A stretch of 64,000 bases of DNA, from NCBI GenBank assembly GCA_963713975.1, contig OY970218.1:1216001-1280000 (forward strand). The letters run 5' to 3'. The notes below the pieces were generated by a model. It did not search any database. It saw only the letters and a list, made by a program, of their open reading frames with translations, and had not been told where the DNA came from. A program made the translations under genes and the position numbers. Below, piece after piece: positions 42,973 to 57,843 of the stretch (its first letter is position 1; each line of letters opens with the position of its first letter). Origin of the DNA: an uncultured Chloroflexia bacterium (lineage in GTDB: Bacteria; Chloroflexota; Limnocylindria; Limnocylindrales; CSP1-4).

Positions 42973-45341
42973 TCGTCGATCTCGGGTGGGTCGCAGGCTC
43001 GCTCGCATCGCTCGTGCCACTCGCCGCGGCGTTCGTGGGGCTCGCGCTCCTCTTCGTCCTCGTCCTGCGTCTCGTGCCCGTCGCGCGCCAGCGCGCCTAC
43101 GACCGGGTGTCGGCGCGGGAGACGGTCAGGCTCGTCGTCGCGCTGCCGGCGCGGGCCGCCGCCGACGCTGGGCTCGGGGTCGAGCTCATCCGGGCGCTCC
43201 ACCCCCGAGCACGTCGCGGCTTCGATGCCTGGCGCGTCGGCTGGCCGCGCATCGAGCTCCGGCTCGTCTGGCGCGATGGCTCCCTGGCCTTCGAGATCGA
43301 GACCAACAGCCAGGTCGCCGCCGTCGCCATGGCGCAGCTGCGCGCCCTGTATCCCGGGGTGGCCATCGAGACGACCGACGGTCGCGACCAACCCCCGGCC
43401 GCGACCGCGATCGGGCGGCTGGACGGCCCCCGGGGCTGGCCGCTGCGGGAGGTGGCGGCTCCCGAGGCCCGCATCCCCCGTGCCCTCGCCGCGGCGCTCG
43501 AGCATGCCCCCGCCGGTGCCGAGGTGCGGCTGCGGTGCGTCGCACGACCCGTGCCGCCCGAGGCCTGGCGGCGCGACCTCGGCGCCCCGGAGGATGCGAG
43601 CCCCGGATCGCTTCGATCCCTCATCGGGCGCGCGATCGTCGACGCCATCCTGCTCCGGCCGACCGCCGCGACCACGACTCAGTCTCCTGTCCGGACCTCG
43701 CCGGCAGAGCGTGAGGCCCAGGCCCGCAGACGCCGTGGCGTCGTCGGGTTCGACGTCGGCCTCCGCCTCGAGGTCGCGGGGATCGCAGGCCCGGCCGCCG
43801 AGGCGCTGCTGTGGCGGCTGGTCCATGTCACCGCCGAGCTCGACGACGGCCGCCAGGCGATCCGCTGGCAGATCCGGCGTGGCAGCGCCGGGGGAGCGCC
43901 CGCGGCGAGGCTCGCGGACTGGGAGCTCGCCCAGCTGTGGTCCCTGCCCGACGCGTCCTTCGACGAGGCCGGGTTCACTCGCGCGCGCCCGCTCGGGGCC
44001 GCGCCGCCGGCGTCGCCCGACGGCCTCGGGCTCGTGCTCGGCGAGAGCCGCGGTCGAGCGCTGGTGCTGCCCGCCGACGCCCTCGCCCGTCATCTGGCGG
44101 TGTTCGGCTCGACGGGATCGGGCAAGAGCACGCTCTTGCTCAACCTCGTGCTCGCACTGGCGGAATCGCCGATCGGGGCCACGGTCATCGATCCCCATGG
44201 CGACCTGACGACCGACATCCTCGAGCGGCTGCCCGAGAATGCGGCATCCAGGGTCCACGTCCTGCGGCTGGCCGATCGCGACCACCCGCGCGGGTTCAAC
44301 TTCCTCGAGCGCGCGTCGCCCGACGAGGCCCAGCTCGTGACGAGCGAGTTCGTCGAGCTGTTCGAGGACCTGTGGCCGAGGTTTTGCGGCCCCAAGATGC
44401 AGCACTACCTGCGGCACGCGCTCCTGACCCTGCTGGCTGCTCCTGAACCCGGGACGATCATCGAGCTCACCCGCATCCTGACCGACGACGCCTTCCGCGA
44501 GCCGTTGGTCGCCAAGGTCACCGACCCGCTCGTCGCCGCGTTCTGGCGGACCGAGTGGCCGGGGCCCAAGGAGCGCGAGCGCGACAGCTCGATCAAGGCG
44601 GTCCTCAACAAGCTCGGCGCCTTTGTGACCTATGCCTCGATCCGGAACGTGGTGGGGCAGGGGGTCTCGACGATCCGGCCGCGGGCGCTCATGGACCGGG
44701 GCGAGATCCTGCTCGTCGACCTCTCGGGCGTGGGCGGCGACAACGCGAACCTGTTCGGCGCGATGCTGATCAGCCGCTACCTGATCGACGCCACCGGGCG
44801 CCAGGGCACCCCGCGCGACCAGCGGCGCCAGCACGTGCTCGTGGTCGACGAGGCCCAGCGGTTCGACACGCGGGCGATGGGCAAGATCGCCGTGGAGGGT
44901 CGCAAGTTCGGCCTGGCCCTGGCGATCGCCTCGCAGTCGATGGGCGGCCTGGGGGAGCGGCTGCGCGAAACGGTCCTCACCAACGCCGCGTGCCTCGCGC
45001 TCCTCGCCCCGGGCGCCGACGACCTGCGCGGCCTCGGGCGCCTGGTGGCGCCGGTGTCGGTCGACGAGCTCAGCCGCATGCGCCGGTTCGAGGTGCTGCT
45101 CCGGATGCCCGGGCCCGACGGGCGCCCGGGTGTGTACGGCGGAACGGTCAGTGCACCTGGTCCGTCTGACCCTGCCACCGCGGCGGCGATCGTCGCACGG
45201 AGCGACGCGCGCGATGCGCGGCCGGTCGATGGGGTCCGCGCGGAGGTCCTCCGGCGGGCCGGCGGCGACGACGCGGTGCCCAGCAAGGCCGATGTCGCAA
45301 GCGCCGCACCGTCCGAGCAGCAACGCGGCCACCAGTCATGA
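42969..45341 (+). CDS. virD4: Type IV coupling protein (VirD4/TraD-like)
   Basis: N-terminal TM, RHLAVFGSTGSGKST, IDPHGD, VVDEAQRF, EGRKFG, ASQ. GTGA overlap with the previous gene. Confidence 0.88.
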   Translation: MIVDLGWVAGSLASLVPLAAAFVGLALLFVLVLRLVPVARQRAYDRVSARETVRLVVALPARAAADAGLGVELIRALHPRARRGFDAWRVGWPRIELRLVWRDGSLAFEIETNSQVAAVAMAQLRALYPGVAIETTDGRDQPPAATAIGRLDGPRGWPLREVAAPEARIPRALAAALEHAPAGAEVRLRCVARPVPPEAWRRDLGAPEDASPGSLRSLIGRAIVDAILLRPTAATTTQSPVRTSPAEREAQARRRRGVVGFDVGLRLEVAGIAGPAAEALLWRLVHVTAELDDGRQAIRWQIRRGSAGGAPAARLADWELAQLWSLPDASFDEAGFTRARPLGAAPPASPDGLGLVLGESRGRALVLPADALARHLAVFGSTGSGKSTLLLNLVLALAESPIGATVIDPHGDLTTDILERLPENAASRVHVLRLADRDHPRGFNFLERASPDEAQLVTSEFVELFEDLWPRFCGPKMQHYLRHALLTLLAAPEPGTIIELTRILTDDAFREPLVAKVTDPLVAAFWRTEWPGPKERERDSSIKAVLNKLGAFVTYASIRNVVGQGVSTIRPRALMDRGEILLVDLSGVGGDNANLFGAMLISRYLIDATGRQGTPRDQRRQHVLVVDEAQRFDTRAMGKIAVEGRKFGLALAIASQSMGGLGERLRETVLTNAACLALLAPGADDLRGLGRLVAPVSVDELSRMRRFEVLLRMPGPDGRPGVYGGTVSAPGPSDPATAAAIVARSDARDARPVDGVRAEVLRRAGGDDAVPSKADVASAAPSEQQRGHQS

Positions 45342-45356
45342 TCGGCCCGCTGACCG

Positions 45357-45410
45357 GGTGCGCCAGATGGGGCGCCAGATGGGGCGCCGAGACGCCCCTA
45401 TGGGCGCACC
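45357..45410. repeat. Candidate oriT-like repeat cluster
   Basis: GCGCCAGATGGG twice (45360-45383), bracketed by the inverted repeat GGTGCGCC/GGCGCACC, between the coupling protein and relaxase genes. Confidence 0.35.
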
Positions 45411-45453
45411 GATTCCGTGCTCGGGACGCGGGGTCACGGCGAAGGGACCTCAC

Positions 45454-46341
45454 GTGAGCGGACGCCGTGGACAGCCGGCCGCTGGCTCACGCACGCTCGG
45501 GGTCGACCTCGATGCCCTCCCGATCGCGGACAAGGCCGCCCTGCGCCTCCTCATCCGCGCCGATGCCGCCACCGCCTCACAGCTTGCCCGCCTCATCTAC
45601 CGCCGCGAGCGAACCGCCCAGGACCGGCTCCTCGAGCTCTGGCGCACAGGCGCGCTCGAACGATCCACCGACCCCCGCTCCGGCCGAGGAACCGCCACCC
45701 TGGCATACCGCACAAGCCAGATGACCCGAGCACACCTCGGCATTCGCGAGCCGCGTGCCAGCAGTTTGTACCTCCGCCACACCCTCGACATCGTCGAAGC
45801 CGTGTGCGCGCTCGCCGCTCCCGATCCGGCGGACGCACCTCGCGCGGTCCAGGCCTGGCTCACCGAGCGGATGAGCGCAGACCTGCCGGGTCCCGGGATC
45901 AGACCCGACAGCGTCGTCGCCCTGCAGGTGGGTGCACGCTCCGCCGTCCTGTGCCTCGAGATGGACGAGGGGACCCAGCACGCCCCGGTCATCCGGGCCC
46001 GCCTTGCCGCCTACGGCCGTTGGCTGCCCACGCGCGCCGGCTGGCACCTGCTGTTCGTCGTCCAGAGCGAGCAACGCACCCGCTGGTTGCGCCGCCTGGG
46101 GTCCTGGCATGGCCCGGCGTCGCTCGAAGGCCGGTCATGGGTCGTGCGGCTGGCCGACGTCCGCTCCGATGGACTCGACGCGCTGGCGGTGCCCATCGTC
46201 GGCGTGGAGTCAGCCGTGCCGGTCAGTGGCCTCACCCGGGATCCCGCCTCCCGTGAGTCCGCTGCGCCCGTAGGGTCGAACGCCTGGATCGAGCTCCTGG
46301 GCCAAGGCGGCGGTGAGGACCTCAGCCACGCGCTCCGATGA
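45454..46341 (+). CDS. Replication-relaxation (Replic_Relax) family putative relaxase
   Basis: N-terminal wHTH, LRHTLDIVE, IRPDSVV, LEMDEGT; follows the coupling protein. Start uncertain. Confidence 0.8.
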   Translation: MSGRRGQPAAGSRTLGVDLDALPIADKAALRLLIRADAATASQLARLIYRRERTAQDRLLELWRTGALERSTDPRSGRGTATLAYRTSQMTRAHLGIREPRASSLYLRHTLDIVEAVCALAAPDPADAPRAVQAWLTERMSADLPGPGIRPDSVVALQVGARSAVLCLEMDEGTQHAPVIRARLAAYGRWLPTRAGWHLLFVVQSEQRTRWLRRLGSWHGPASLEGRSWVVRLADVRSDGLDALAVPIVGVESAVPVSGLTRDPASRESAAPVGSNAWIELLGQGGGEDLSHALR

Positions 46342-46457: not shown

Positions 46458-48107
46458 TCATGGTCTCGCAGTGCCATGTACCGAGGCCTCGCGGATCAAG
46501 TCAGCCTCCGCCTGCTCGTCGGACAGGGGCTCGTAGGCCATCGCCTTGCAATACTCGTCGAAGCTCCAGCGGGCGAAGCTCGCGGCGAGGTAAGGGAACT
46601 GCTCGCTCGACTCCTCTGCGTACTCGGTGCGCGGGATCGCGTGCTGGTCGTGCAGCGGGTGGCGACAGCGCACGACGACGTAGTCCCCCAGAGCCGCCCA
46701 GTCGCCGTGCAGCGCGGAGCCCGCCGGGATCATGACCGAGTGGTACATGTCCTCCAGCCCAACCTCACGCGACATGTCAAGAAGTCCCTTGTCAGCGGCA
46801 AAGGTGCCCGCGGTGCTGATGTCCTGGAAGTCCTCGGAGACGCCGCGATTCACGTCCGCGCGCAGCTTCGGCAGGAGCCGCTCGAGGATCGCGTGCGGCT
46901 CCCCCTCGGTCCGACCGATAACCTCCTCCGTGTGGAGCATCAAGGCCTTGGTCCGCCCGCGACCGAAATTCTTGAACTCGTCCCAGATCGCCGGCCGCGA
47001 GCTCTCCACCGACAACATCCACTTCAGCTGCACGTAAGCTTCGAAGAGCGACCGGACGGACGGATAGCCGTGCTCCTCGGACCAGAGGGCCGGATGTGAC
47101 ACGAGATGGGCTGCGACCCTCAGAGCGCGCCAGACCACTCCCGTGAGGACGTCGTAGCGATCGTGGTTCCAGATGTCCGGGTCGATGTCGGCCGCCGCCC
47201 GCAGGAATTGGTAGTGCAGCCGGTACAGACGGGCAGCTCCCTGCGCGAGATGGTCCTGATCAGGGGGTGAAGCCTCGCCAGCCGGGACAGTGAGGCAGCG
47301 GAACAGGCGCCCGTTGGCGCGCCAGAACCGCTCGCACCACGCGCCGCCCGCTAGTGAGCCCTCGAGTTCTGCGGCCTGGAAGGAGAGGAACGACGCCCGG
47401 AGTGTCGTCTCGGCGAGCTTCCGCTCACCTTCGCTCACAGGGTTCTCGTAGTTGCGAAGCGCCTTGAAGCCGGGGTCGTCAGGGTGGAAGGAGATCCGCT
47501 GCGTCATGACCATGCCGCGGAGCCAAAGGTAGATGGCGTCGGTCGCGAGTTCCTGGTGCGAGTCGCCGCCGAGGCGCATCGTTTCCCAGAGGTGTTCCTC
47601 TGCTTCGACCAGGTCCGGCACGAGTCCGGCGTCGAAGTGGGGTTGGGCGAGCCATCGACCCGGCGCGTCGTCGTACGCGGCCAGGACGTGGGCGAGCGGC
47701 TCGGGCGAGATGGCGTCATAGATGCCAAGCCGCCTGAACTCGTCCACCAACTCGTTGCGCTCCCGGTCCGGGACACGCTCCCAGTCGGTCAGAAGGCCGT
47801 GGAAGACCGGCTCGCGGTCGCCGCCAAGCGCACCGCGTTCGTGGGCCCTATGGAAGGCGGCTTGCCCTGCATCCAGCGCCTGCGTCGTAGCGCCGCGGGC
47901 GAGGGGCCGGAGGCGAAGCATGGTCAGGAGCCACAGGAAGTCCGGAAAGGCAACCTTCCGGAATGGCCGCAAGGTGGGCGGGATCGGCAGATTGAGCATC
48001 GGCGGGACATGTCGCGTACCCAGCCGGTAGTGGCCGCGGAACGGAGACGGCCGGGATCCGCGATTCGACTTGCGCGAGTCCGCGTCCATCCCATCCATTT
48101 GGAACAT
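46458..48107 (-). CDS. DUF5677-like protein
   Basis: FPDFLWL; C-terminal VRSLFEAY...GSALHGDW pattern. Start uncertain. Confidence 0.6.
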   Translation of the reverse strand: MFQMDGMDADSRKSNRGSRPSPFRGHYRLGTRHVPPMLNLPIPPTLRPFRKVAFPDFLWLLTMLRLRPLARGATTQALDAGQAAFHRAHERGALGGDREPVFHGLLTDWERVPDRERNELVDEFRRLGIYDAISPEPLAHVLAAYDDAPGRWLAQPHFDAGLVPDLVEAEEHLWETMRLGGDSHQELATDAIYLWLRGMVMTQRISFHPDDPGFKALRNYENPVSEGERKLAETTLRASFLSFQAAELEGSLAGGAWCERFWRANGRLFRCLTVPAGEASPPDQDHLAQGAARLYRLHYQFLRAAADIDPDIWNHDRYDVLTGVVWRALRVAAHLVSHPALWSEEHGYPSVRSLFEAYVQLKWMLSVESSRPAIWDEFKNFGRGRTKALMLHTEEVIGRTEGEPHAILERLLPKLRADVNRGVSEDFQDISTAGTFAADKGLLDMSREVGLEDMYHSVMIPAGSALHGDWAALGDYVVVRCRHPLHDQHAIPRTEYAEESSEQFPYLAASFARWSFDEYCKAMAYEPLSDEQAEADLIREASVHGTARP

Positions 48108-48409
48108 GATGCCGTACGGGCCACCAAGGGCGAACGCGGGTGCCAGAGATCAGCGCAGCCGTGGCAAGGACGGCCATTGGCTGCTTGACGACCGCGAACA
48201 GCATGCCAGTAGTGCCGACGCACGCGAGTGCTTTGACAATGATCCAGAGGTATCCGATCAGGACCTACTTGTCCGTTGCGGCGCATCGTCAATCCAGCGA
48301 GGGTGGGTCAGCGCGGGCTCGGGCAGGGGGCGTTCAACTCGTACACCCAGGGTGACCCGGTGAGGCTCGTTGGCCAAAGGTGCCCCTCGTCCATCGGGAC
48401 TCTGCAAGG

Positions 48410-48464
48410 GTACACAAACACGTACACATATAGCATTGACCATGCTGCAGACCGAGCGCATCGT
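48410..48464 (+). promoter_or_regulatory. Promoter with tandem GTACACA boxes upstream of the RNA/ubiquitin-like operon
   Basis: GTACACAAACAC-GTACACATATAGCA-TTGACC-N17-CATCGT. Confidence 0.65.
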
Positions 48465-48470
48465 GCCCTT

Positions 48471-49080
48471 GGGCGACTGAGGCCAGTGGATGCGTACCTG
48501 AGTGCTTCAGTCGCCCGCCACGTTCGATGGTCGAACGGGCAGCGGGCTCCCCGGCACGAGCTCCCACGGCGGTTGCCGTGACCAGGCCAGCGCCGGCGTC
48601 GGGATCCTCTGGGATCTGCGGCGACTGAAGCACCTTACCAACCACATAGCGCTGCCAATCGCGCGCTCTTCGATGCGTGCGATCGCGCGAGGCGTGCCCG
48701 CCACCAGGGCGTGGGCGGAGTCCGACCGGGGGTCGGTCGTCGCGAGGAATTCTCCTCGACGATCCGCAACTCGGTCGTGTTCCGTCCTCGTTGGGCGCGG
48801 CACGACCGGTTTCGGTTCGTTCGGGCGTTGCTCGTCGACGGCTCGTCGTTCCTGGTCGGGACTCTCTCTCACGTTCGGGTGGCGGACGACATCCGCGCCG
48901 GAATGGAGGTGATGCCCCGAAGGGGTTCGATGACGTCGGCGGCCTGCGCGCCCGCCGGTGTTCGCAACTGTTGCGCACCAAAGGACAGGGGCCGATCCTC
49001 GCCGATCGCATCAAGACGGCAGGACGCCGCGCCTGCCTTCGTCTGCCCCGGTCCGCTTGTCATGCGGCGTTCGTTCCACA
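48471..49080 (+). ncRNA. Candidate large structured RNA or 5' leader
   Basis: Perfect 14-bp long-range stem (48502-48515 with 48620-48633), further closing stems and many hairpins; no convincing ORF. Confidence 0.5.
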
Positions 49081-49093
49081 TGGAGGTTTCACC

Positions 49094-49333
49094 GTGCAGA
49101 CGATGCAAGACGCCGAGACGACGAGGGTCGTGTACGGCGTCAACGAGCTCGAACTCGACCTGGCCGGCAAGACGGTCCACGGGATCTGGAAGGCCCTCGA
49201 ACAGGTCTTCAATATCCCGCGCGACGCGGTCATCACGGTCAACGGATCCCGGACCGACGACGAGTACGTCGTGCGCCCGGGCGACGAGATCGAATTCCAG
49301 AAGGCAGCCGGCGTGAAGGGCCAGGCGGTCTGA
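49094..49333 (+). CDS. Ubiquitin-like (ThiS/MoaD beta-grasp) protein with C-terminal extension
   Basis: GGAGG RBS; VITVNG...VVRPGDEIEFQKAAGVKG-QAV. Confidence 0.85.
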   Translation: MQTMQDAETTRVVYGVNELELDLAGKTVHGIWKALEQVFNIPRDAVITVNGSRTDDEYVVRPGDEIEFQKAAGVKGQAV

Positions 49334-49448
49334 CACGCGGGCTTCGGCCACACCTGCAGGGACTCCTGGGTCCGGCGACGCCCAAGCGGCGTGCCGGGCC
49401 CGGGGCCCTTTGGGTCACCGAAACGCCTCAGAAAGGAGCTCACGCAAC

Positions 49449-50219
49449 ATGCAGTCGCGCACGTACCTGCGCATCGAAGGCGATCTGGTGAGCCTGATCA
49501 GCGAGGTCATCGACCGTGAGGTCGCGCTTCCGGATCTCCTGGCCGAGCTCACCACCAACCAAGTTCAGCTGAGCCCGAGGCTGCCAACCGGCTGCCGCTT
49601 CTGGTTCCGTGCCGGGTCGACGGGCCGTACGGTCTTCGTCACCGAGCAGGCCCCGATGCGGCGGACGATCGAGTACCAGACGAGCCGGCGACCGGCGGGC
49701 GAGCCGATCACGTATCGGATCGCCCTGCCGTACGTCGTGTTCGTGGTCTCGACCTATGGCGAGCAGATCGAGGGCCTCGCGACCTACTTCCGACCGGCGC
49801 CCCTGCGCTCGATCGACGATGGGCTGTGCTGCTCGACCCTGCCGAACACGGACGACGATGGGACCGTCTGTCTCGGCTCGGTCAGGGTCAGCGGCGCCAC
49901 CGTTGGCGAACGCGTGGACGCCCTCGTCGGTGCGTTCTGGGCGAGTCGCTTCAATCAGGACCTGCGACGCCATCCGCTCTCGTTCCCCGGTGGCTTCCGG
50001 GCCTGGGCGGCTCGTTCGCGACGGGATCCCCTCGCGGCCCTCTCGATGGCCTACGACCCCTATTGGCGGACCCTCCGCCAGGTCACAGCGCAGATGGCCG
50101 GCGTGGCTCCCACGGACCTGCCGGCGGTCACGCCGATCCCCAGCGAGGCGCCCGAGACCGACGTCCGGACGCCAGACCCGGTGGTCGAGGGAGGTGAGGC
50201 AGATGACCTCGCTGCCTGA
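49449..50219 (+). CDS. Prokaryotic E2 family D (ubiquitin-conjugating-like) protein
   Basis: ALPYVVF, LPNTDDDGTVCLG (candidate catalytic Cys), FWASRFNQDL; AAGGAG RBS. Confidence 0.82.
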   Translation: MQSRTYLRIEGDLVSLISEVIDREVALPDLLAELTTNQVQLSPRLPTGCRFWFRAGSTGRTVFVTEQAPMRRTIEYQTSRRPAGEPITYRIALPYVVFVVSTYGEQIEGLATYFRPAPLRSIDDGLCCSTLPNTDDDGTVCLGSVRVSGATVGERVDALVGAFWASRFNQDLRRHPLSFPGGFRAWAARSRRDPLAALSMAYDPYWRTLRQVTAQMAGVAPTDLPAVTPIPSEAPETDVRTPDPVVEGGEADDLAA

Positions 50220-50466
50220 CACCATCCGGGGACTGCCGGTCGCCCGACCGAGCGATCTCGGGAGCCTGCTGGCGCCGCATCTCAGGGTCGCCGATCCTGA
50301 GAACCCGCTCGTCGGGCTCGAAGCGTCGGCCCTGGCGATCGCGGTGGCGATCCTCAAGGCATCCGGACGAGTCCTGCGCGAGGAGCTGACCCGCGAGCGA
50401 TCGCGGTCCCGCGAACTCGAGCACCTCGTCTACCGCCTGCCGGTGGCCGAGCGGGAGGGGGACTGA
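50203..50466 (+). CDS. Small helical protein within the ubiquitin-like operon
   Basis: 87 aa, GGAGGTGA RBS, overlaps the E2 stop and abuts the JAB start. Confidence 0.7.
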   Translation: MTSLPDTIRGLPVARPSDLGSLLAPHLRVADPENPLVGLEASALAIAVAILKASGRVLREELTRERSRSRELEHLVYRLPVAEREGD

Positions 50467-50467
50467 C

Positions 50468-51301
50468 ATGTTCCCGATCCTTCCTGCGGGCTCACCGGCG
50501 GCGGCCGACACCTCGCTGCCGGCCTTCCTCGTCGCCCATGACGGGCTGTATCTGCGCAAGCGGAGCCTGCTCGGTGTGAGCCAGACGAGGGTCAATGGGG
50601 CCGAGCATCTGCCCCCTGCGACGGAGTACGTCGAGTACGCGCTGCCGAGGATCTCAGCGGACCAGATGGCCCGCGTCGTCGGCTTCTTCCGCTCCATCTA
50701 CCGGGCGCAGCGGACCGAGGCGCTCGTCCTCCTGCTCTGGGCGGGCGAGGGCTTCGAGCTGTTCGTCCCGGACCAGAAGGTGAGCCCCGCCTCGGTGAGC
50801 CACACGCTCGACGCGGCGAGACTGCCGGCCGGATCCCGCGTCGTCGGGTCGATCCACTCTCACGGTGCCTTCGGCGCCCCGGCGAGTGCGATCGACGAAG
50901 ACGACGAGGCGGAGTTCGACGGGCTGCACATCGTCGTCGGGCGCTTCGATCGGCGTCCGTCCTATTCGGCGGCCATCGCCGTCGACGGACGCCGCTTCCG
51001 TATTCCAGTGGCCGATGTCCTGGAACGGCCCCGGAGGCTCGTCGAGCCGCCGGAGGAGTGGTGTCAGCGAGTGACACTCCTGCCGCCGCCGCGGCCGTCG
51101 AAGGACAAGGGCCACCGACCCTCGTCCACCGGCGCTCCGGTGCCGCTCCCTCATCGAGGGGCCCACCGGGTCAGCCGCGTCGATCTCGACGTGGCGCTCG
51201 CCCGGGCGGATGGCCTGGCCTCACAGCTTGGGCTCCACCTCAGCTTCTCGCTCGCCCCGGTCTCCGGGTCGGGTCGGAAGGTGGGTGGCGCCGATGCCTG
51301 A
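50468..51301 (+). CDS. JAB/JAMM metallopeptidase (Prok-JAB, PRTRC protein A-like)
   Basis: RTEALVLL plus SIHSHGAFGAPASAIDEDDE JAMM motif. Confidence 0.88.
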   Translation: MFPILPAGSPAAADTSLPAFLVAHDGLYLRKRSLLGVSQTRVNGAEHLPPATEYVEYALPRISADQMARVVGFFRSIYRAQRTEALVLLLWAGEGFELFVPDQKVSPASVSHTLDAARLPAGSRVVGSIHSHGAFGAPASAIDEDDEAEFDGLHIVVGRFDRRPSYSAAIAVDGRRFRIPVADVLERPRRLVEPPEEWCQRVTLLPPPRPSKDKGHRPSSTGAPVPLPHRGAHRVSRVDLDVALARADGLASQLGLHLSFSLAPVSGSGRKVGGADA

Positions 51302-51995
51302 CCGGGTCGTGCTCATCGGCCTCGGCGGCATCGGGAGCCAGCTCGCACCCTCGCTCGTCCGATACCTCTCATTCCGCCCGGAGCCGCGCCCGCTCCTGGT
51401 CCTCGTCGACGGTGACGCCTACGAGATCTCGAACCGGTCGCGGCAACTCTTCCCCGATGACGCCCTGGGCACGAACAAGGCCGAGGCCTTGGCCCAGGTG
51501 TTCCGCGGGGGTGGGCTTGCGGTCCAGGCGATCGCCGGGTACGTGAGCGCCGACAACGTCGGGCTCGTCGTCCGCGAAGGGGACGTCTGTCTCCTCGCGG
51601 TCGACAACCACCCGACGCGGGCGCTCGTCGACCGGCACATCGCCGCTCTTTCGGACGTGACGCTCATCAGCGGTGGCAACGACGAGACGGACGGCAACGT
51701 CCAGCTCGTCCGTCGCCGCGACGGGTACAGCGTCGATGGCCACCTGGTCGAGATCCACCCGGAGATCGGCCAGGCGGCAGGTGCAGACGTCATGCCGGGT
51801 ACCGGCTGTGCGGCCCTCGCGCCCATTCGGCCCCAGCTCGTCGTGACCAATCTGATGGTCGCAAGCGCGATGCTCAACTGCCTCTGGGCGGTCACCGAGC
51901 AGGGCAGCGTCCCCTACAGCGAGGTCTACCTCGACGTGGTCCATAACGCGGCGCGTAGCCGCAGCTGGCTCCGCGTCCAGGACGGCGCGCAGTAG
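51294..51995 (+). CDS. E1-like ThiF adenylyltransferase
   Basis: LIGLGGIG, VDGDAYEISNRSRQ, NKA, AVDNHPTR, ISGGN, GTGCAA (candidate catalytic Cys). Confidence 0.9.
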   Translation: MPDRVVLIGLGGIGSQLAPSLVRYLSFRPEPRPLLVLVDGDAYEISNRSRQLFPDDALGTNKAEALAQVFRGGGLAVQAIAGYVSADNVGLVVREGDVCLLAVDNHPTRALVDRHIAALSDVTLISGGNDETDGNVQLVRRRDGYSVDGHLVEIHPEIGQAAGADVMPGTGCAALAPIRPQLVVTNLMVASAMLNCLWAVTEQGSVPYSEVYLDVVHNAARSRSWLRVQDGAQ

Positions 51996-52239
51996 GGGAA
52001 TGTGGAGTCAACAGGTGCAATAGCCTGCCGGGGATGCGCCATGCGGCGCTCCCCGGCCGAACCATCTCTGCGGCTCGAAGTGCTGGAGCTGTGGTCAGGG
52101 CGTCTATGTGCGATCCGGCCCCGACGGCCTCCGCTACCTCCTCCAGGAGGTCGACCTGCCAGTCATCGAGGCTGCCTGGGCGGAGTCCAACGCCCGGGAC
52201 TAGACGCGCACCCACTCAGGCGCAGCTGACACTCCCGCC

Positions 52240-56855: not shown

Positions 56856-57843
56856 CACGTCCCTCCTCTGCTCACCCTGGGTTGTCTCAGCAACCCCCAG
56901 CGTGCGTGGGGAGGGACGCTTGATGTTCACGGTGTCCGTGAGGGGACCGTGGGGCGGGCTGTCCAGATCGCGTGGCCGGCGGCGTTCAGATCTCGTGGCC
57001 GCCGGCGTCCAGCTTCCTGTCCGCCTGCGTCCAGATTCCCATGGCCGCTGTCACCCCCGGCCACCGTCGGTCGAGATCCCGAGCGCGATCCAGCTGTGGG
57101 ACCGAGCTCTCGATTGGATGTACACGAATACGTACGCGCCCCGAAGGGGCCGCTGAGCCTCGTCTTCCCCGGCAACTCCTAGTCACAACCTATTCAATCT
57201 CCAGGAGATTCATCTGGGGGGCTACAGGGAACGCCGCAGCCTCTCGCGGTAGCTGGTGCTCGACCGGGCCCACAGGGACAACGGCGAGCCACTCGGTCAC
57301 AGGCTGTAGCTGGGTCAGGGCGGCCAGGACGCGGTGCAAGTCGTAGGTCCGGCCTGCCGACCGCGGGCGCCGCGGTCACCGGAAGCTCCCGATGACACGA
57401 GGCTTGGGCGGCGGGGGTGGTTCGAGCATGGCCATGGCGATCGCGCGGACCATCGCGCCCGCCGCGGTGTTCAGTTCGACCCGCGACGAGCCGGCACCTG
57501 TCTGTGCGCGACCGTTGGGGTCAACTTCCTCGTCACGCCGGCGACGCTCCTGCACGCGCGGATTGGCGCGGTCAGCGGTATGGGGCCGTCGGTCGTGAAC
57601 GCCGTGGCTCCGTCAGCATCCGCGTGACGGCTCGGGCCGAGCGCTGGGGGCAAGGTCCCCGCCGCTGCGGACGGAAGCGCATGCGCTTCCCGATCGGGGA
57701 CCCGTCGGAGCGTGGGCAACCGACGGCGCACCTGCTCTGGGAGCTGGCGGCCCCGTGCGGGCAGGGCCGCGACCCTGAGCGTTGGACGTCCAGCGGTGCG
57801 GGCGTCGACGATCGTGCGCTTCGGAGCACACGAGTGTCCTGCA

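What the first reader, a model, noticed from the sequence alone, without database searches (positions are those of the whole stretch)
48471..49080. About 620-nt densely structured non-coding RNA candidate leading the ubiquitin-like operon
Seen: no credible ORF between the promoter (-10 at 48459-48464) and the Ubl RBS, but nested pairing. A perfect 14-bp stem GTGCTTCAGTCGCC (48502-48515) / GGCGACTGAAGCAC (48620-48633) encloses hairpins CGTTCGA-tgg-TCGAACG and CACGGC-ggtt-GCCGTG. A second domain is closed by 48718-48730 with 48851-48864 and contains CGAGGA-attc-TCCTCG and CGGTCGTG...CACGACCG. A third is closed by 48983-48992 with 49045-49054. The predicted 5' end GGGCGACTGA(GG) (48471-48482) competes for the same 48505-48516 strand, giving two mutually exclusive folds. 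Inference: an undescribed large ncRNA or switch-like leader co-transcribed with the Ubl system. Caveat: high GC inflates chance hairpins.
Basis: partly seen in the sequence, partly recalled or inferred. Interest (0 to 1): 0.8.

Follow-up and report, generated by a model that had tools for sequence, protein, structure and literature searches.

The report
Large structured leader RNA of Ubl operon
A roughly 620-base stretch in front of a bacterial ubiquitin-like gene cluster is a conserved, folded, non-coding RNA that always travels with that cluster and probably controls its translation, and it matches no described RNA family.

Summary

It is a real non-coding RNA. About 100 homologues were found in Chloroflexota (Limnocylindrales-type) genomes and metagenomes, always directly upstream of the same Ubl-E2-87aa-JAB-E1 cassette. 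It has no codon periodicity, many indels that are not multiples of three, and no conserved ORF. Several hairpins covary, and G.U outnumbers A.C, which points to the + strand.

A conserved promoter precedes it. Metatranscriptome contigs of relatives begin about 10 nt after the predicted start and run through the leader into Ubl and E2.

No Rfam family matches, and my literature searches found no description.

The competing 5' hairpin is the conserved fold.

A conserved UCGYCUG pairs with Ubl codons 2-4, enclosing the SD and start codon. This suggests translational control in cis.

The trigger is unknown, and so is the role of an invariant GGAGGUGAUG. A trans-acting or RNP role is not excluded.

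Whole-structure covariation statistics were inflated, as a coding control showed. The helix-level evidence survives that control.

The parts
48410..48427 (+). Operator-like direct repeat GTACAC-N6-GTACAC just upstream of the -35
   Evidence: Conserved in all 15 leaders aligned with their flanks. Homology between genomes begins here, at 48398-48457. The own genome has a second exact copy with the same promoter layout. Protein binding is inferred.
48436..48464 (+). Promoter: -35 TTGACC (48436-41), 17-nt spacer, -10 CATCGT (48459-64)
   Evidence: The hexamers are conserved while the spacer varies. The simple sigma-70 scan does not call it, because the -10 matches TATAAT at only 3 of 6 positions. 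RNA-library contigs begin 17-18 nt downstream of the -10.
48471..49093 (+). Structured non-coding leader RNA (5' UTR of the Ubl operon), about 620 nt
   Evidence: Conserved in about 100 loci. Non-coding. Folding z -4.2 and -5.3. Helix covariation. No Rfam match.
48471..48516 (+). P1, 5'-terminal hairpin (48471-80 with 48507-16)
Evidence: 85.7% of cells paired in 77 sequences, and 7 of 10 pairs show changes on both sides.
48517..48625 (+). Four local hairpins: P2 (48517-40), P3 (48542-64), P4 (48565-80), P5/P5a (48596-625)
   Evidence: P2 inner 81% paired, 4 of 7 pairs changed on both sides; P3 95.9%, 5 of 6; P4 98.5%, 3 of 6; P5a 87.3%, 6 of 6. P3 and P4 head the energy-free scan.
48630..48679 (+). 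Nearly invariant block GCACCUUACCAACCACA..CGCUGCCAAU plus hairpin CGCGC/GCGUG (48660-64/48675-79)
   Evidence: CACCTT, CGCTGC and neighbouring columns are invariant in 41 sequences. The hairpin is 99.5% paired but changes on one side only.
48713..48869 (+).
   Evidence: In the closing helix 10 of 16 pairs change on both sides (helix 14). The part 48718-23/48859-64 is 92% paired. This domain is shortened in genus g5 loci.
48881..48916 (+). GGCGGA hairpin followed by the invariant SD-like word GGAGGUGAUG(C/U)C (48905-16)
   Evidence: The hairpin is 98% paired, with the closing pair CG 44 / UA 25. GGAGG..GATG is invariant in 41 sequences. It can pair with CACCUU 48631-36, but neither side varies. 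Function unexplained.
48936..49038 (+). 3' domain: hairpin CCGGCGG/CCGCCGG (48936-42/48952-58), variable hairpin, CGAUC/GAUCG hairpin, hairpin 49017-26/49028-38
Evidence: (helices 20-25).
49039..49103 (+). Start-site enclosure: UCGUCUG (49039-45) pairs with CAGACGA (49097-103, Ubl codons 2-4). The loop holds SD GGAGG 49083-87 and start GTG 49094-96
   Evidence: Mean 6.39 of 7 pairs in 94 distinct sequences. Compensated forms include TCGTCTG/CAGACGA (28), TCGCCTG/CAGGCGA (16) and TTGCCTG/CAGGCAA (4). In a permutation of 17 haplotype pairs, 0 of 5000 reached the observed value. Also seen (helix 26; I2).
49094..49333 (+). Ubl gene (79 aa, ThiS-like, ends ..AGVKG + 1-3 residues)
   Evidence: Pfam ThiS 2.6e-4, just under the cut-off. 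Conserved in all loci.
49410..51995 (+). Rest of the cassette: E2-like 49410-50219, conserved 87-aa ORF 50203-50466, JAB 50468-51301, ThiF-type E1 about 51210-51995
   Evidence: Weak Pfam Prok-E2_D and Prok-JAB, and ThiF at 2.8e-16. Weak NCBIfam PRTRC_A/B/ThiF and weak PADLOC BilD. The 87-aa ORF is conserved.
52027..52057 (+). GC-rich hairpin at the 3' edge of the cassette (no U tract)
   Evidence: Read from the sequence. Homology between genomes ends at 52058-52076 in most loci and earlier in 3 of 10.

Best explanation
Window 48471-49093 is the long, highly structured, non-coding 5' leader of the mRNA of a compact Ubl-E2-(87 aa)-JAB-E1 cassette. It is transcribed from a conserved promoter (-35 at 48436, -10 at 48459) that carries an operator-like GTACAC repeat. 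It folds into a 5' hairpin, a row of covarying hairpins, a closed middle domain and a 3' domain. Its last conserved word (UCGYCUG, 49039-45) pairs with codons 2-4 of the Ubl gene, so the Shine-Dalgarno sequence and start codon sit inside a closed loop. The most likely role is control in cis of translation of the operon, and perhaps of mRNA stability. The large upstream fold would serve as a sensor or platform whose remodelling opens the start site. Shown here: conservation, non-coding nature, helix covariation, strand, strict linkage to the cassette, and presence in RNA libraries contiguous with Ubl and E2. Inferred: that the start-site helix represses translation, that the fold switches, and what triggers it.
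For: Linkage to the cassette:
- All 16 long genus matches that reach the operon are followed by it.
- E2 homologues occur in 20 of 401 class genomes. All 19 published loci with upstream sequence carry the leader: 17 by default nhmmer and 2 more with --max.
- Covariance model R1 hits 12 of 151 class genomes, once per genome. Nine of the hits lie just upstream of E2 matches. In the own genome it hits only itself.
- 39 of 47 genome contigs pattern hits and 59 of 60 metagenome pattern hits are true homologues. 44 of the 49 metagenome hits with room downstream have Ubl adjacent.

Non-coding nature:
- Leader substitutions fall 22/27/20, 27/28/26 and 80/79/83 by phase, against 10/7/42 and similar in E2. 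The leader has many 1-, 2- and 4-nt indels.
- No ORF is conserved.

Structure:
- Folding z is -4.2 and -5.3.
- P1-P5a and the middle-domain closing helix each have 3-7 pairs that change on both sides.
- An energy-free scan finds 26 covarying pairs and 5 helices with at least 2 of them in the leader. An E2 coding control from the same 35 genomes gives 6 and 0.
- G.U 803 against A.C 286 on the + strand; 511 against 534 when the - strand is folded.

Transcription:
- Contigs in 3 metatranscriptome runs begin at 48481-82 with no loose end. One 1225-nt contig runs from 48481 through the leader and Ubl into E2.
- No terminator-like site lies in the leader.

Start-site helix.
Against: - Whole-structure statistics are not decisive. 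RNAalifold on an E2 coding control also gives 86% paired cells and 39 pairs with double changes. A cross-clade test of single-sequence folds does not separate leader from control for double changes: 51% against 53%.
- The start-site helix has a central or near-terminal mismatch in about a third of sequences, for example 11 TCGCCTG/CAGACGA and 18 TCGCCTG/CAGGCAA. Its permutation test is not corrected for phylogeny.
- Several of the most conserved helices never vary, so they are untested.
- No alternative 'on' fold is supported by covariation.
- At 620 nt the leader is far longer than translational occlusion alone needs.
- The RNA evidence comes from assembled contigs of relatives, which cannot prove a 5' end, a strand or a single transcript. 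No DNA run was laid for comparison.
- The simple promoter scan does not call the promoter.
Confidence: 0.6

Rival explanations
1. The RNA is a functional partner of the Ubl machinery rather than, or as well as, a leader. In this reading it is a stable, possibly processed, large ncRNA that acts as scaffold, sensor of infection or RNP component with E1, E2, JAB or the 87-aa protein.
For: Its size and number of conserved helices are in the range of large ornate ncRNAs rather than of riboswitches. Several invariant unpaired blocks, such as GCACCUUACCAAC, CGCUGCCAAU and GGAGGUGAUG, look like binding or tertiary-contact sites. It co-occurs strictly with the cassette down to 57% E2 identity. The leader survives in deletion remnants that lost Ubl, E2 and JAB (L159, L160, L127).
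Against: There is no terminator-like site between the leader and Ubl. One RNA-library contig spans leader, Ubl and E2. The 3' end of the leader pairs with the Ubl coding start. No RNA-binding domain was found in the cassette proteins. The model of the 87-aa protein was too poor to use.
Confidence: 0.2
2. It is a constitutive structural 5' UTR. In this reading the fold only protects the mRNA from RNases or sets a fixed low translation rate for a costly system, with no sensing and no switching.
For: No alternative fold has covariation support. The 5' terminal hairpin P1 is the kind of element known to stabilise bacterial mRNAs (established knowledge, recalled). The start-site helix is short.
Against: A stabiliser does not need 620 nt, with invariant unpaired blocks and an invariant SD-like word 180 nt upstream of the start.
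Confidence: 0.12
3. The conservation acts on DNA, for example a recombination or integration site, a protein-binding array or a single-stranded DNA structure of a mobile cassette.
For: The cassette moves as a unit, with boundaries at about 48400 and 52070 and different flanks in different genomes. Partial leader fragments and deletion joints occur.
Against: G.U outnumbers A.C 803 to 286 on the + strand only. Helices covary rather than keeping their sequence. The region is present in RNA libraries from the predicted start onward and not upstream. No integrase or transposase was seen among the cassette ORFs. There were 0 hits in viral contigs.
Confidence: 0.04
4. It is a protein-coding gene or a decayed pseudogene, as hinted by GC-frame signals at 48440-48980.
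For: The GC3-like frame plot shows coding-like phases in two different frames. ORFs of 136-244 codons are open in the window.
Against: There is no codon periodicity of substitutions. Indels of 1, 2, 4, 5 and 7 nt occur between close relatives. No ORF is shared in start, end or frame by the 41 homologues. Pfam finds nothing for the four longest translations.
Confidence: 0.03

Closest known systems
Riboswitch and T-box type cis-regulatory 5' leaders
   Same: It lies between promoter and first gene on the coding strand, has covarying helices, and has a 3' element that occludes the translation start.
   Different: It is two to three times longer than any such leader I know of (recalled). No Rfam aptamer or T-box match appears in the window or in 13 homologous loci. 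No ligand is suggested by the gene context. No anti-sequestor is supported by covariation.
Large ornate bacterial ncRNAs (OLE, ROOL, GOLLD)
   Same: It has about 600 nt and many conserved helices, occurs in uncultivated environmental lineages, and has no known function. For PMC12286853 I saw the search listing and the start of the abstract.
   Different: It has no covariance-model similarity to any Rfam family; that these RNAs are in Rfam is recalled, not checked. It is a 5' UTR tied to one operon, not a free-standing gene. It gave 0 hits in viral contigs.
ncRNAs of anti-phage systems (retron msr-msd, type III toxin-antitoxin RNAs)
   Same: A non-coding RNA is encoded at the 5' end of a compact, mobile, island-borne cassette. 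A DitA-like defence gene lies next door.
   Different: There is no reverse transcriptase in the cassette and no tandem repeats. The defence role of this cassette is itself only inferred.
Bil, Bub and PRTRC ubiquitin-like operons (context of the RNA)
   Same: The gene set is Ubl, E2-like, JAB peptidase and E1 adenylase. Passages of PMC11601596 describe Bil and Bub.
   Different: The E1 is a single 261-aa ThiF domain, not the IAD-AAD-CYS BilD. There is no DUF6527 protein. PRTRC models score far below their cut-offs (22-48 bits against 102-145). PMC11601596 contains neither 'non-coding' nor 'UTR', and my four other relevant searches found no RNA tied to such operons.

Membership tests
Any Rfam 15 family (4227 covariance models) | Covariance-model match at or near the family's gathering score | tested here: not met
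   Window 47500-50000 at E<=10 gave only 3 miRNA-model noise hits of 18-20 bits against gathering scores of 83-85. In 13 homologous loci at E<=1 the only hit was an unrelated SAM riboswitch outside the leader.
Cis-regulatory 5' leader (riboswitch-like) | Transcribed with, and directly upstream of, the regulated gene | tested here: met
   Conserved promoter. RNA-library contigs start at 48481-82, and one runs on into Ubl and E2. No terminator-like site. The RNA evidence comes from contigs of relatives and is therefore weak.
Cis-regulatory 5' leader (riboswitch-like) | Expression platform that occludes the SD or start codon | tested here: met
   49039-45 pairs with 49097-103, mean 6.39 of 7 pairs in 94 sequences, with compensated variants (helix 26; I2). 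About a third of sequences carry one mismatch.
Cis-regulatory 5' leader (riboswitch-like) | Two mutually exclusive conserved conformations | tested here: inconclusive
5' GGCGR can also pair with UCGYC 49039-43 (96% paired), but only with one-sided changes.
Cis-regulatory 5' leader (riboswitch-like) | Binding of a ligand, protein or tRNA to the sensor domain | not testable with these tools
   Needs in-line probing, SHAPE or binding assays.
Large free-standing ornate ncRNA (OLE/ROOL/GOLLD kind) | More than 500 nt with many conserved, covarying helices | tested here: met
Large free-standing ornate ncRNA (OLE/ROOL/GOLLD kind) | Independent transcript, not part of an mRNA | tested here: inconclusive
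   A contig spans leader, Ubl and E2, and there is no terminator. Contigs cannot exclude processing.
Retron or RT-associated defence ncRNA | Adjacent reverse transcriptase | tested here: not met
   Pfam on the cassette ORFs shows only ThiS, E2_D, JAB and ThiF.
Type III toxin-antitoxin RNA | Tandem direct repeats | tested here: not met
   0 tandem repeats in 48300-49200 at minimum score 30.
Protein-coding gene | Conserved reading frame and third-position bias of substitutions | tested here: not met
PRTRC, Bil or Bub operon (context) | Family models above their curated cut-offs; BilD-type multi-domain E1 or a DUF6527 protein | tested here: not met
   PRTRC_A, PRTRC_B and PRTRC_ThiF score 21.8, 24 and 47.7 bits against cut-offs of 101.8, 131.5 and 144.8. 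BilD matches only residues 26-143 at 3.6e-8. There is no DUF6527 hit.

The most novel reading that the evidence does not exclude
The leader is the first RNA component of a prokaryotic ubiquitin-like conjugation system. In this reading it is a roughly 600-nt ornate RNA that senses a cue, such as phage infection or the state of the ribosome through its invariant GGAGGUGAUG word. It would either license translation of the Ubl operon or work with the E1, E2 and JAB proteins as a ribonucleoprotein.
Probability: 0.18. Interest if true: 0.9.

Novelty: new variant of a known kind. Interest (0 to 1): 0.72.

Why it matters
Structured bacterial RNAs longer than 500 nt are rare, and those studied have mostly turned out to be ribozymes, RNP cores or unusual assemblies. 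This one has about 100 natural variants in hand, a defined promoter and 5' end, and strict linkage to a five-gene ubiquitin-like cassette that sits beside a known defence gene. That makes it directly testable.

If it regulates the cassette, it would be the first RNA-level control described for a bacterial ubiquitin-like pathway, and an unusually elaborate one. If it acts with the proteins, it adds an RNA partner to that pathway. Either way it gives a handle on how an uncultivated Chloroflexota lineage controls such a system.

Tried and rejected
- Naive mutual information (G-test with APC) over all column pairs was dominated by the split between clades and was not informative.
- Whole-structure covariation counts looked decisive: 88% paired against 35-45% for slid partners, and 0 of 500 shuffles. 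An E2 coding control processed the same way gave 86% paired. A cross-clade test of single-sequence folds did not separate leader from control for double changes. I therefore rest on helix-level evidence.
- The 87-aa cassette protein has no Pfam, NCBIfam or PADLOC family. Its AlphaFold2 model from 13 sequences was all-helical with mean pLDDT 60.5, too poor for a fold search, which I did not run.
- No tRNA or tmRNA-like gene, no tandem repeats, no terminator-like site, and no promoter call by the simple scan.
- Viral contigs: 0 exact matches to the 22-nt conserved word.
- 8 of 47 genome-contig hits (Proteobacteria, Nonomuraea) and 1 of 60 metagenome hits were chance matches to the word.
- A distant E2 homologue (29% identity, G471) lies in a different operon architecture with no Ubl or leader upstream. 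I did not pursue it.
- RNA runs: the parts of the stretch without cover in X15 and X19 are not interpreted.
Supplementary files of papers were not consulted.

Full report
**Setting.** The window has 70% GC. Its genome is a single 3.6-Mb contig. Records of its relatives are titled Chloroflexota or Candidatus Limnocylindrales MAGs.

The finding lies between a divergent DitA-like gene (46458-48107, minus strand; PADLOC 5e-27) and five tightly packed plus-strand genes:
- a ThiS-like Ubl (49094-49333);
- an E2-like protein with a weak Prok-E2_D match (49410-50219);
- a conserved 87-aa ORF (50203-50466);
- a JAB peptidase (50468-51301);
- a single-domain ThiF-type E1 (about 51210-51995).

**Checking the observation.** As RNA the 624-nt stretch folds to -331.7 kcal/mol, against -298.1 +/- 8 for 20 dinucleotide shuffles (z -4.2). 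With 100 shuffles z is -5.3 on the plus strand and -3.4 on the minus strand.

Long ORFs cross the region, as they do everywhere in GC-rich DNA, and a GC-frame plot even looks coding-like in two frames. Comparison with relatives settles the matter:
- Against six homologous cassettes, leader substitutions are spread evenly over the three phases (for example 22/27/20 and 80/79/83).
- E2 and JAB in the same pairs show the expected third-position excess (for example 10/7/42).
- The leader carries many indels of 1, 2, 4, 5 or 7 nt, whereas the genes carry few.
- No ORF of 30 or more codons keeps its start, end or frame across 41 homologues.

**Relatives and linkage to the cassette.**
- *Own genome.* The stretch occurs once by BLAST and once by covariance model.
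- *Genus.* In the genus, 24 of 70 genomes have a match, and about 16 of the matches are long. Every long match that reaches the operon is followed by it.
- *Extent of homology.* Homology between genomes starts at 48398-48457, at the promoter. In most loci it ends at 52058-52076, just after a GC-rich hairpin behind E1. The flanks differ between genomes. So promoter, leader, five genes and hairpin form one unit of about 3.7 kb. One MAG holds four copies.
- *Pattern scan of genomes.* A 22-nt conserved word found 47 loci among one genome for each of 185,579 species. nhmmer confirmed 39 of them as full homologues, and 8 were chance hits.
- *Pattern scan of metagenomes.* The same word found 60 metagenome contigs, 59 of them true. 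Of the 49 with room downstream, 44 have Ubl adjacent. Three are deletion remnants in which the leader is joined to the end of E1, one has a partial Ubl, and one has no cassette protein within 1.2 kb.
- *Starting from the protein.* E2 homologues occur in 20 of 401 genomes of the class (13 of 65 genera, two families). All 19 published loci with upstream sequence carry the leader, 17 by default nhmmer and 2 with --max. Three loci are cut by contig ends. One locus from an unpublished genome is left out of the count.
- *Rest of the phylum.* Of 401 phylum genomes searched, 11 had a match. Outside the class the only matches were one close copy, which has the leader, and one 29%-identical E2 in a different operon.
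- *Covariance model.* A model of 48542-48682 hits 12 of 151 class genomes, once each. Nine hits lie just upstream of the E2 matches already found.
- *Viral contigs.* There were no hits.

**Structure.** On a 41-sequence alignment RNAalifold gives a multi-domain fold. The counting tool finds 88.1% of cells paired, against 35-45% for slid partners. It also finds 76 pairs with changes on both sides, against 33-50 for slid partners, and 0 of 500 shuffles reach the observed value.

I then ran a control that weakens this result. The same procedure on 630 nt of the E2 gene from the same 35 genomes also gives 86% paired and 39 double-change pairs. Cross-clade tests of single-sequence folds do not separate the two for double changes. 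Much of the whole-structure signal is therefore built in by deriving the structure from the alignment.

Three lines of evidence survive the control:
- *Individual helices in 77 near-full-length sequences*. P1 is 85.7% paired, with 7 of 10 pairs changed on both sides. P2 inner is 81% (4 of 7), P3 95.9% (5 of 6), P4 98.5% (3 of 6), P5a 87.3% (6 of 6), and the middle-domain closing helix 92% (3 of 6).
- *An energy-free scan* for runs of at least 5 columns, each at least 85% canonical. It finds 26 covarying pairs and 5 helices with two or more of them in the leader, against 6 and 0 in the coding control.
- *Strand asymmetry.* G.U outnumbers A.C 803 to 286 on the plus strand, and the two are equal (511 against 534) when the minus strand is folded.

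Several of the best-conserved pairings never vary and are therefore neither supported nor refuted. These are CACCUU with GAGGUG, CGCGC with GCGYG, CGAGGA with UCCUCG, and CCGGCGG with CCGCCGG.

- The perfect 14-bp stem is special to this sequence. It forms 14 of 14 pairs in the window, 12-13 in three close relatives, and 5-9 in most of the 41. Over 77 sequences it is 59% paired.
- The competing 5' hairpin is the conserved one.
- The second-domain closing helix is supported.
- The third-domain closing helix (48983-92 with 49045-54) is 88.5% paired but has many mismatches at two positions. It would form a pseudoknot with the start-site helix described below.

**Transcription.** The -35 and -10 hexamers are conserved while the spacer varies. 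A GTACAC-N6-GTACAC repeat sits just upstream. The simple sigma-70 scan does not call this promoter.

In four metatranscriptome runs, contigs of close relatives cover the leader. In three of them a contig begins at 48481-82 with no loose end, and nothing lies upstream. One 1225-nt contig runs from 48481 through the leader and Ubl into E2. Contigs cannot prove a 5' end, a strand or a single transcript, and no DNA run was laid beside them, so this is a hint that agrees with the promoter and no more. No terminator-like site lies in the leader.

**How it may work.** The last conserved word of the leader, UCGYCUG (49039-45), is complementary to codons 2-4 of Ubl (49097-103). The SD (49083-87) and the start codon sit in the enclosed loop.

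In 94 distinct sequences the mean is 6.39 of 7 pairs. The compensated variants are TCGTCTG/CAGACGA (28), TCGCCTG/CAGGCGA (16) and TTGCCTG/CAGGCAA (4). About a third of the sequences carry one mismatch. Permuting the 17 haplotype pairs never reaches the observed complementarity (0 of 5000), but that test is not corrected for phylogeny (also helix 26 and I2).

This is the best clue to function: occlusion of the translation start in cis. Why 550 nt of conserved fold precede the helix is open. So is the role of an invariant GGAGGUGAUG, a perfect 9-nt Shine-Dalgarno-like word with an AUG too close to serve, 180 nt upstream of the real start. The 5' GGCGR could also pair with UCGYC and free the start, but only one-sided changes support this.

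**Comparison with what is known.**
- No Rfam 15 family matches the window or 13 homologous loci.
- Five relevant full-text searches found no RNA tied to such operons. One Bub paper that I searched contains neither 'non-coding' nor 'UTR'.
- The cassette itself is not a Bil, Bub or PRTRC member by the tests I could run.
- The RNA works most like a riboswitch-type leader and looks most like the large ornate ncRNAs. It is a member of neither.

**Verdict.** The element is a real, conserved, structured non-coding RNA of about 620 nt (confidence about 0.95). It belongs to a Ubl-E2-JAB-E1 cassette of Limnocylindrales-type Chloroflexota and is most likely a cis-acting leader that governs translation of the operon (0.6). 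A trans-acting or RNP role is not excluded (0.2).

Noticed in passing
window 48410-48427; G000:C1:1301799-1301816 (L182 1501-1518); window 57120-57137: The operator-like repeat GTACAC-N6-GTACAC ahead of the cassette promoter has one more exact copy in the genome, with the same layout (repeat, ATAGGCATGGACC, 17 nt, CATGCT), 37 kb away. There is also a 1-mismatch copy inside the window. This may mark a small regulon with a shared repressor. Overall counts with 1 mismatch allowed (11) do not exceed the reversed-pattern control (15).
   Followed up: partly
window 46458-48107 (-): The divergent upstream gene is a DitA-like protein (PADLOC 5.1e-27; Pfam DUF5677). The cassette therefore sits in a defence-island-like, variable spot. 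In 5 of 10 other genomes a homologue of window 44380-46341 lies at a similar distance upstream, with different content between.
   Followed up: partly
window 50203-50466 (+): A conserved 85-92 aa ORF lies between E2 and JAB (31-87% identity in 12 other cassettes) and has no family. The AlphaFold2 model is all-helical but of low confidence (pLDDT 60.5).
   Followed up: partly
L159 3074-3865, L160 2883-3674, L127 612-934: These are deletion remnants in which the leader (to about model position 579-599) is joined directly to the last 55-69 residues of E1. They look like decayed cassettes.
   Followed up: partly
L078 5532-5715; L108 3627-3746: Partial extra copies of leader segments lie 0.6-4.5 kb upstream of complete leaders. 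This suggests past recombination at leader sequences.
   Followed up: no
L110 1959-2406; L111 2630-3110: Genus g5 carries a shortened leader of about 450-480 nt that keeps the 5' and 3' parts and loses much of the middle domain. It is a natural deletion series for mapping function.
   Followed up: no
L041, L044, L045, L046 (one MAG, 5% contamination); L132: One MAG holds four diverged copies of the whole cassette on four contigs. One metagenome contig (L132) holds two convergent cassettes, one of them with frameshifts.
   Followed up: no
L107 27-127: A SAM riboswitch (48.7 bits, above gathering score) lies about 400 nt upstream of that locus's leader. It belongs to a neighbouring gene and is unrelated to the leader.
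   Followed up: no
window 48905-48916: The invariant word GGAGGUGAUG(C/U)C is a perfect 9-nt SD-like sequence with an overlapping UGA/AUG, and no conserved ORF follows it. In the divergent clade it reads GGAGGGAUG. It is unexplained.
   Followed up: partly
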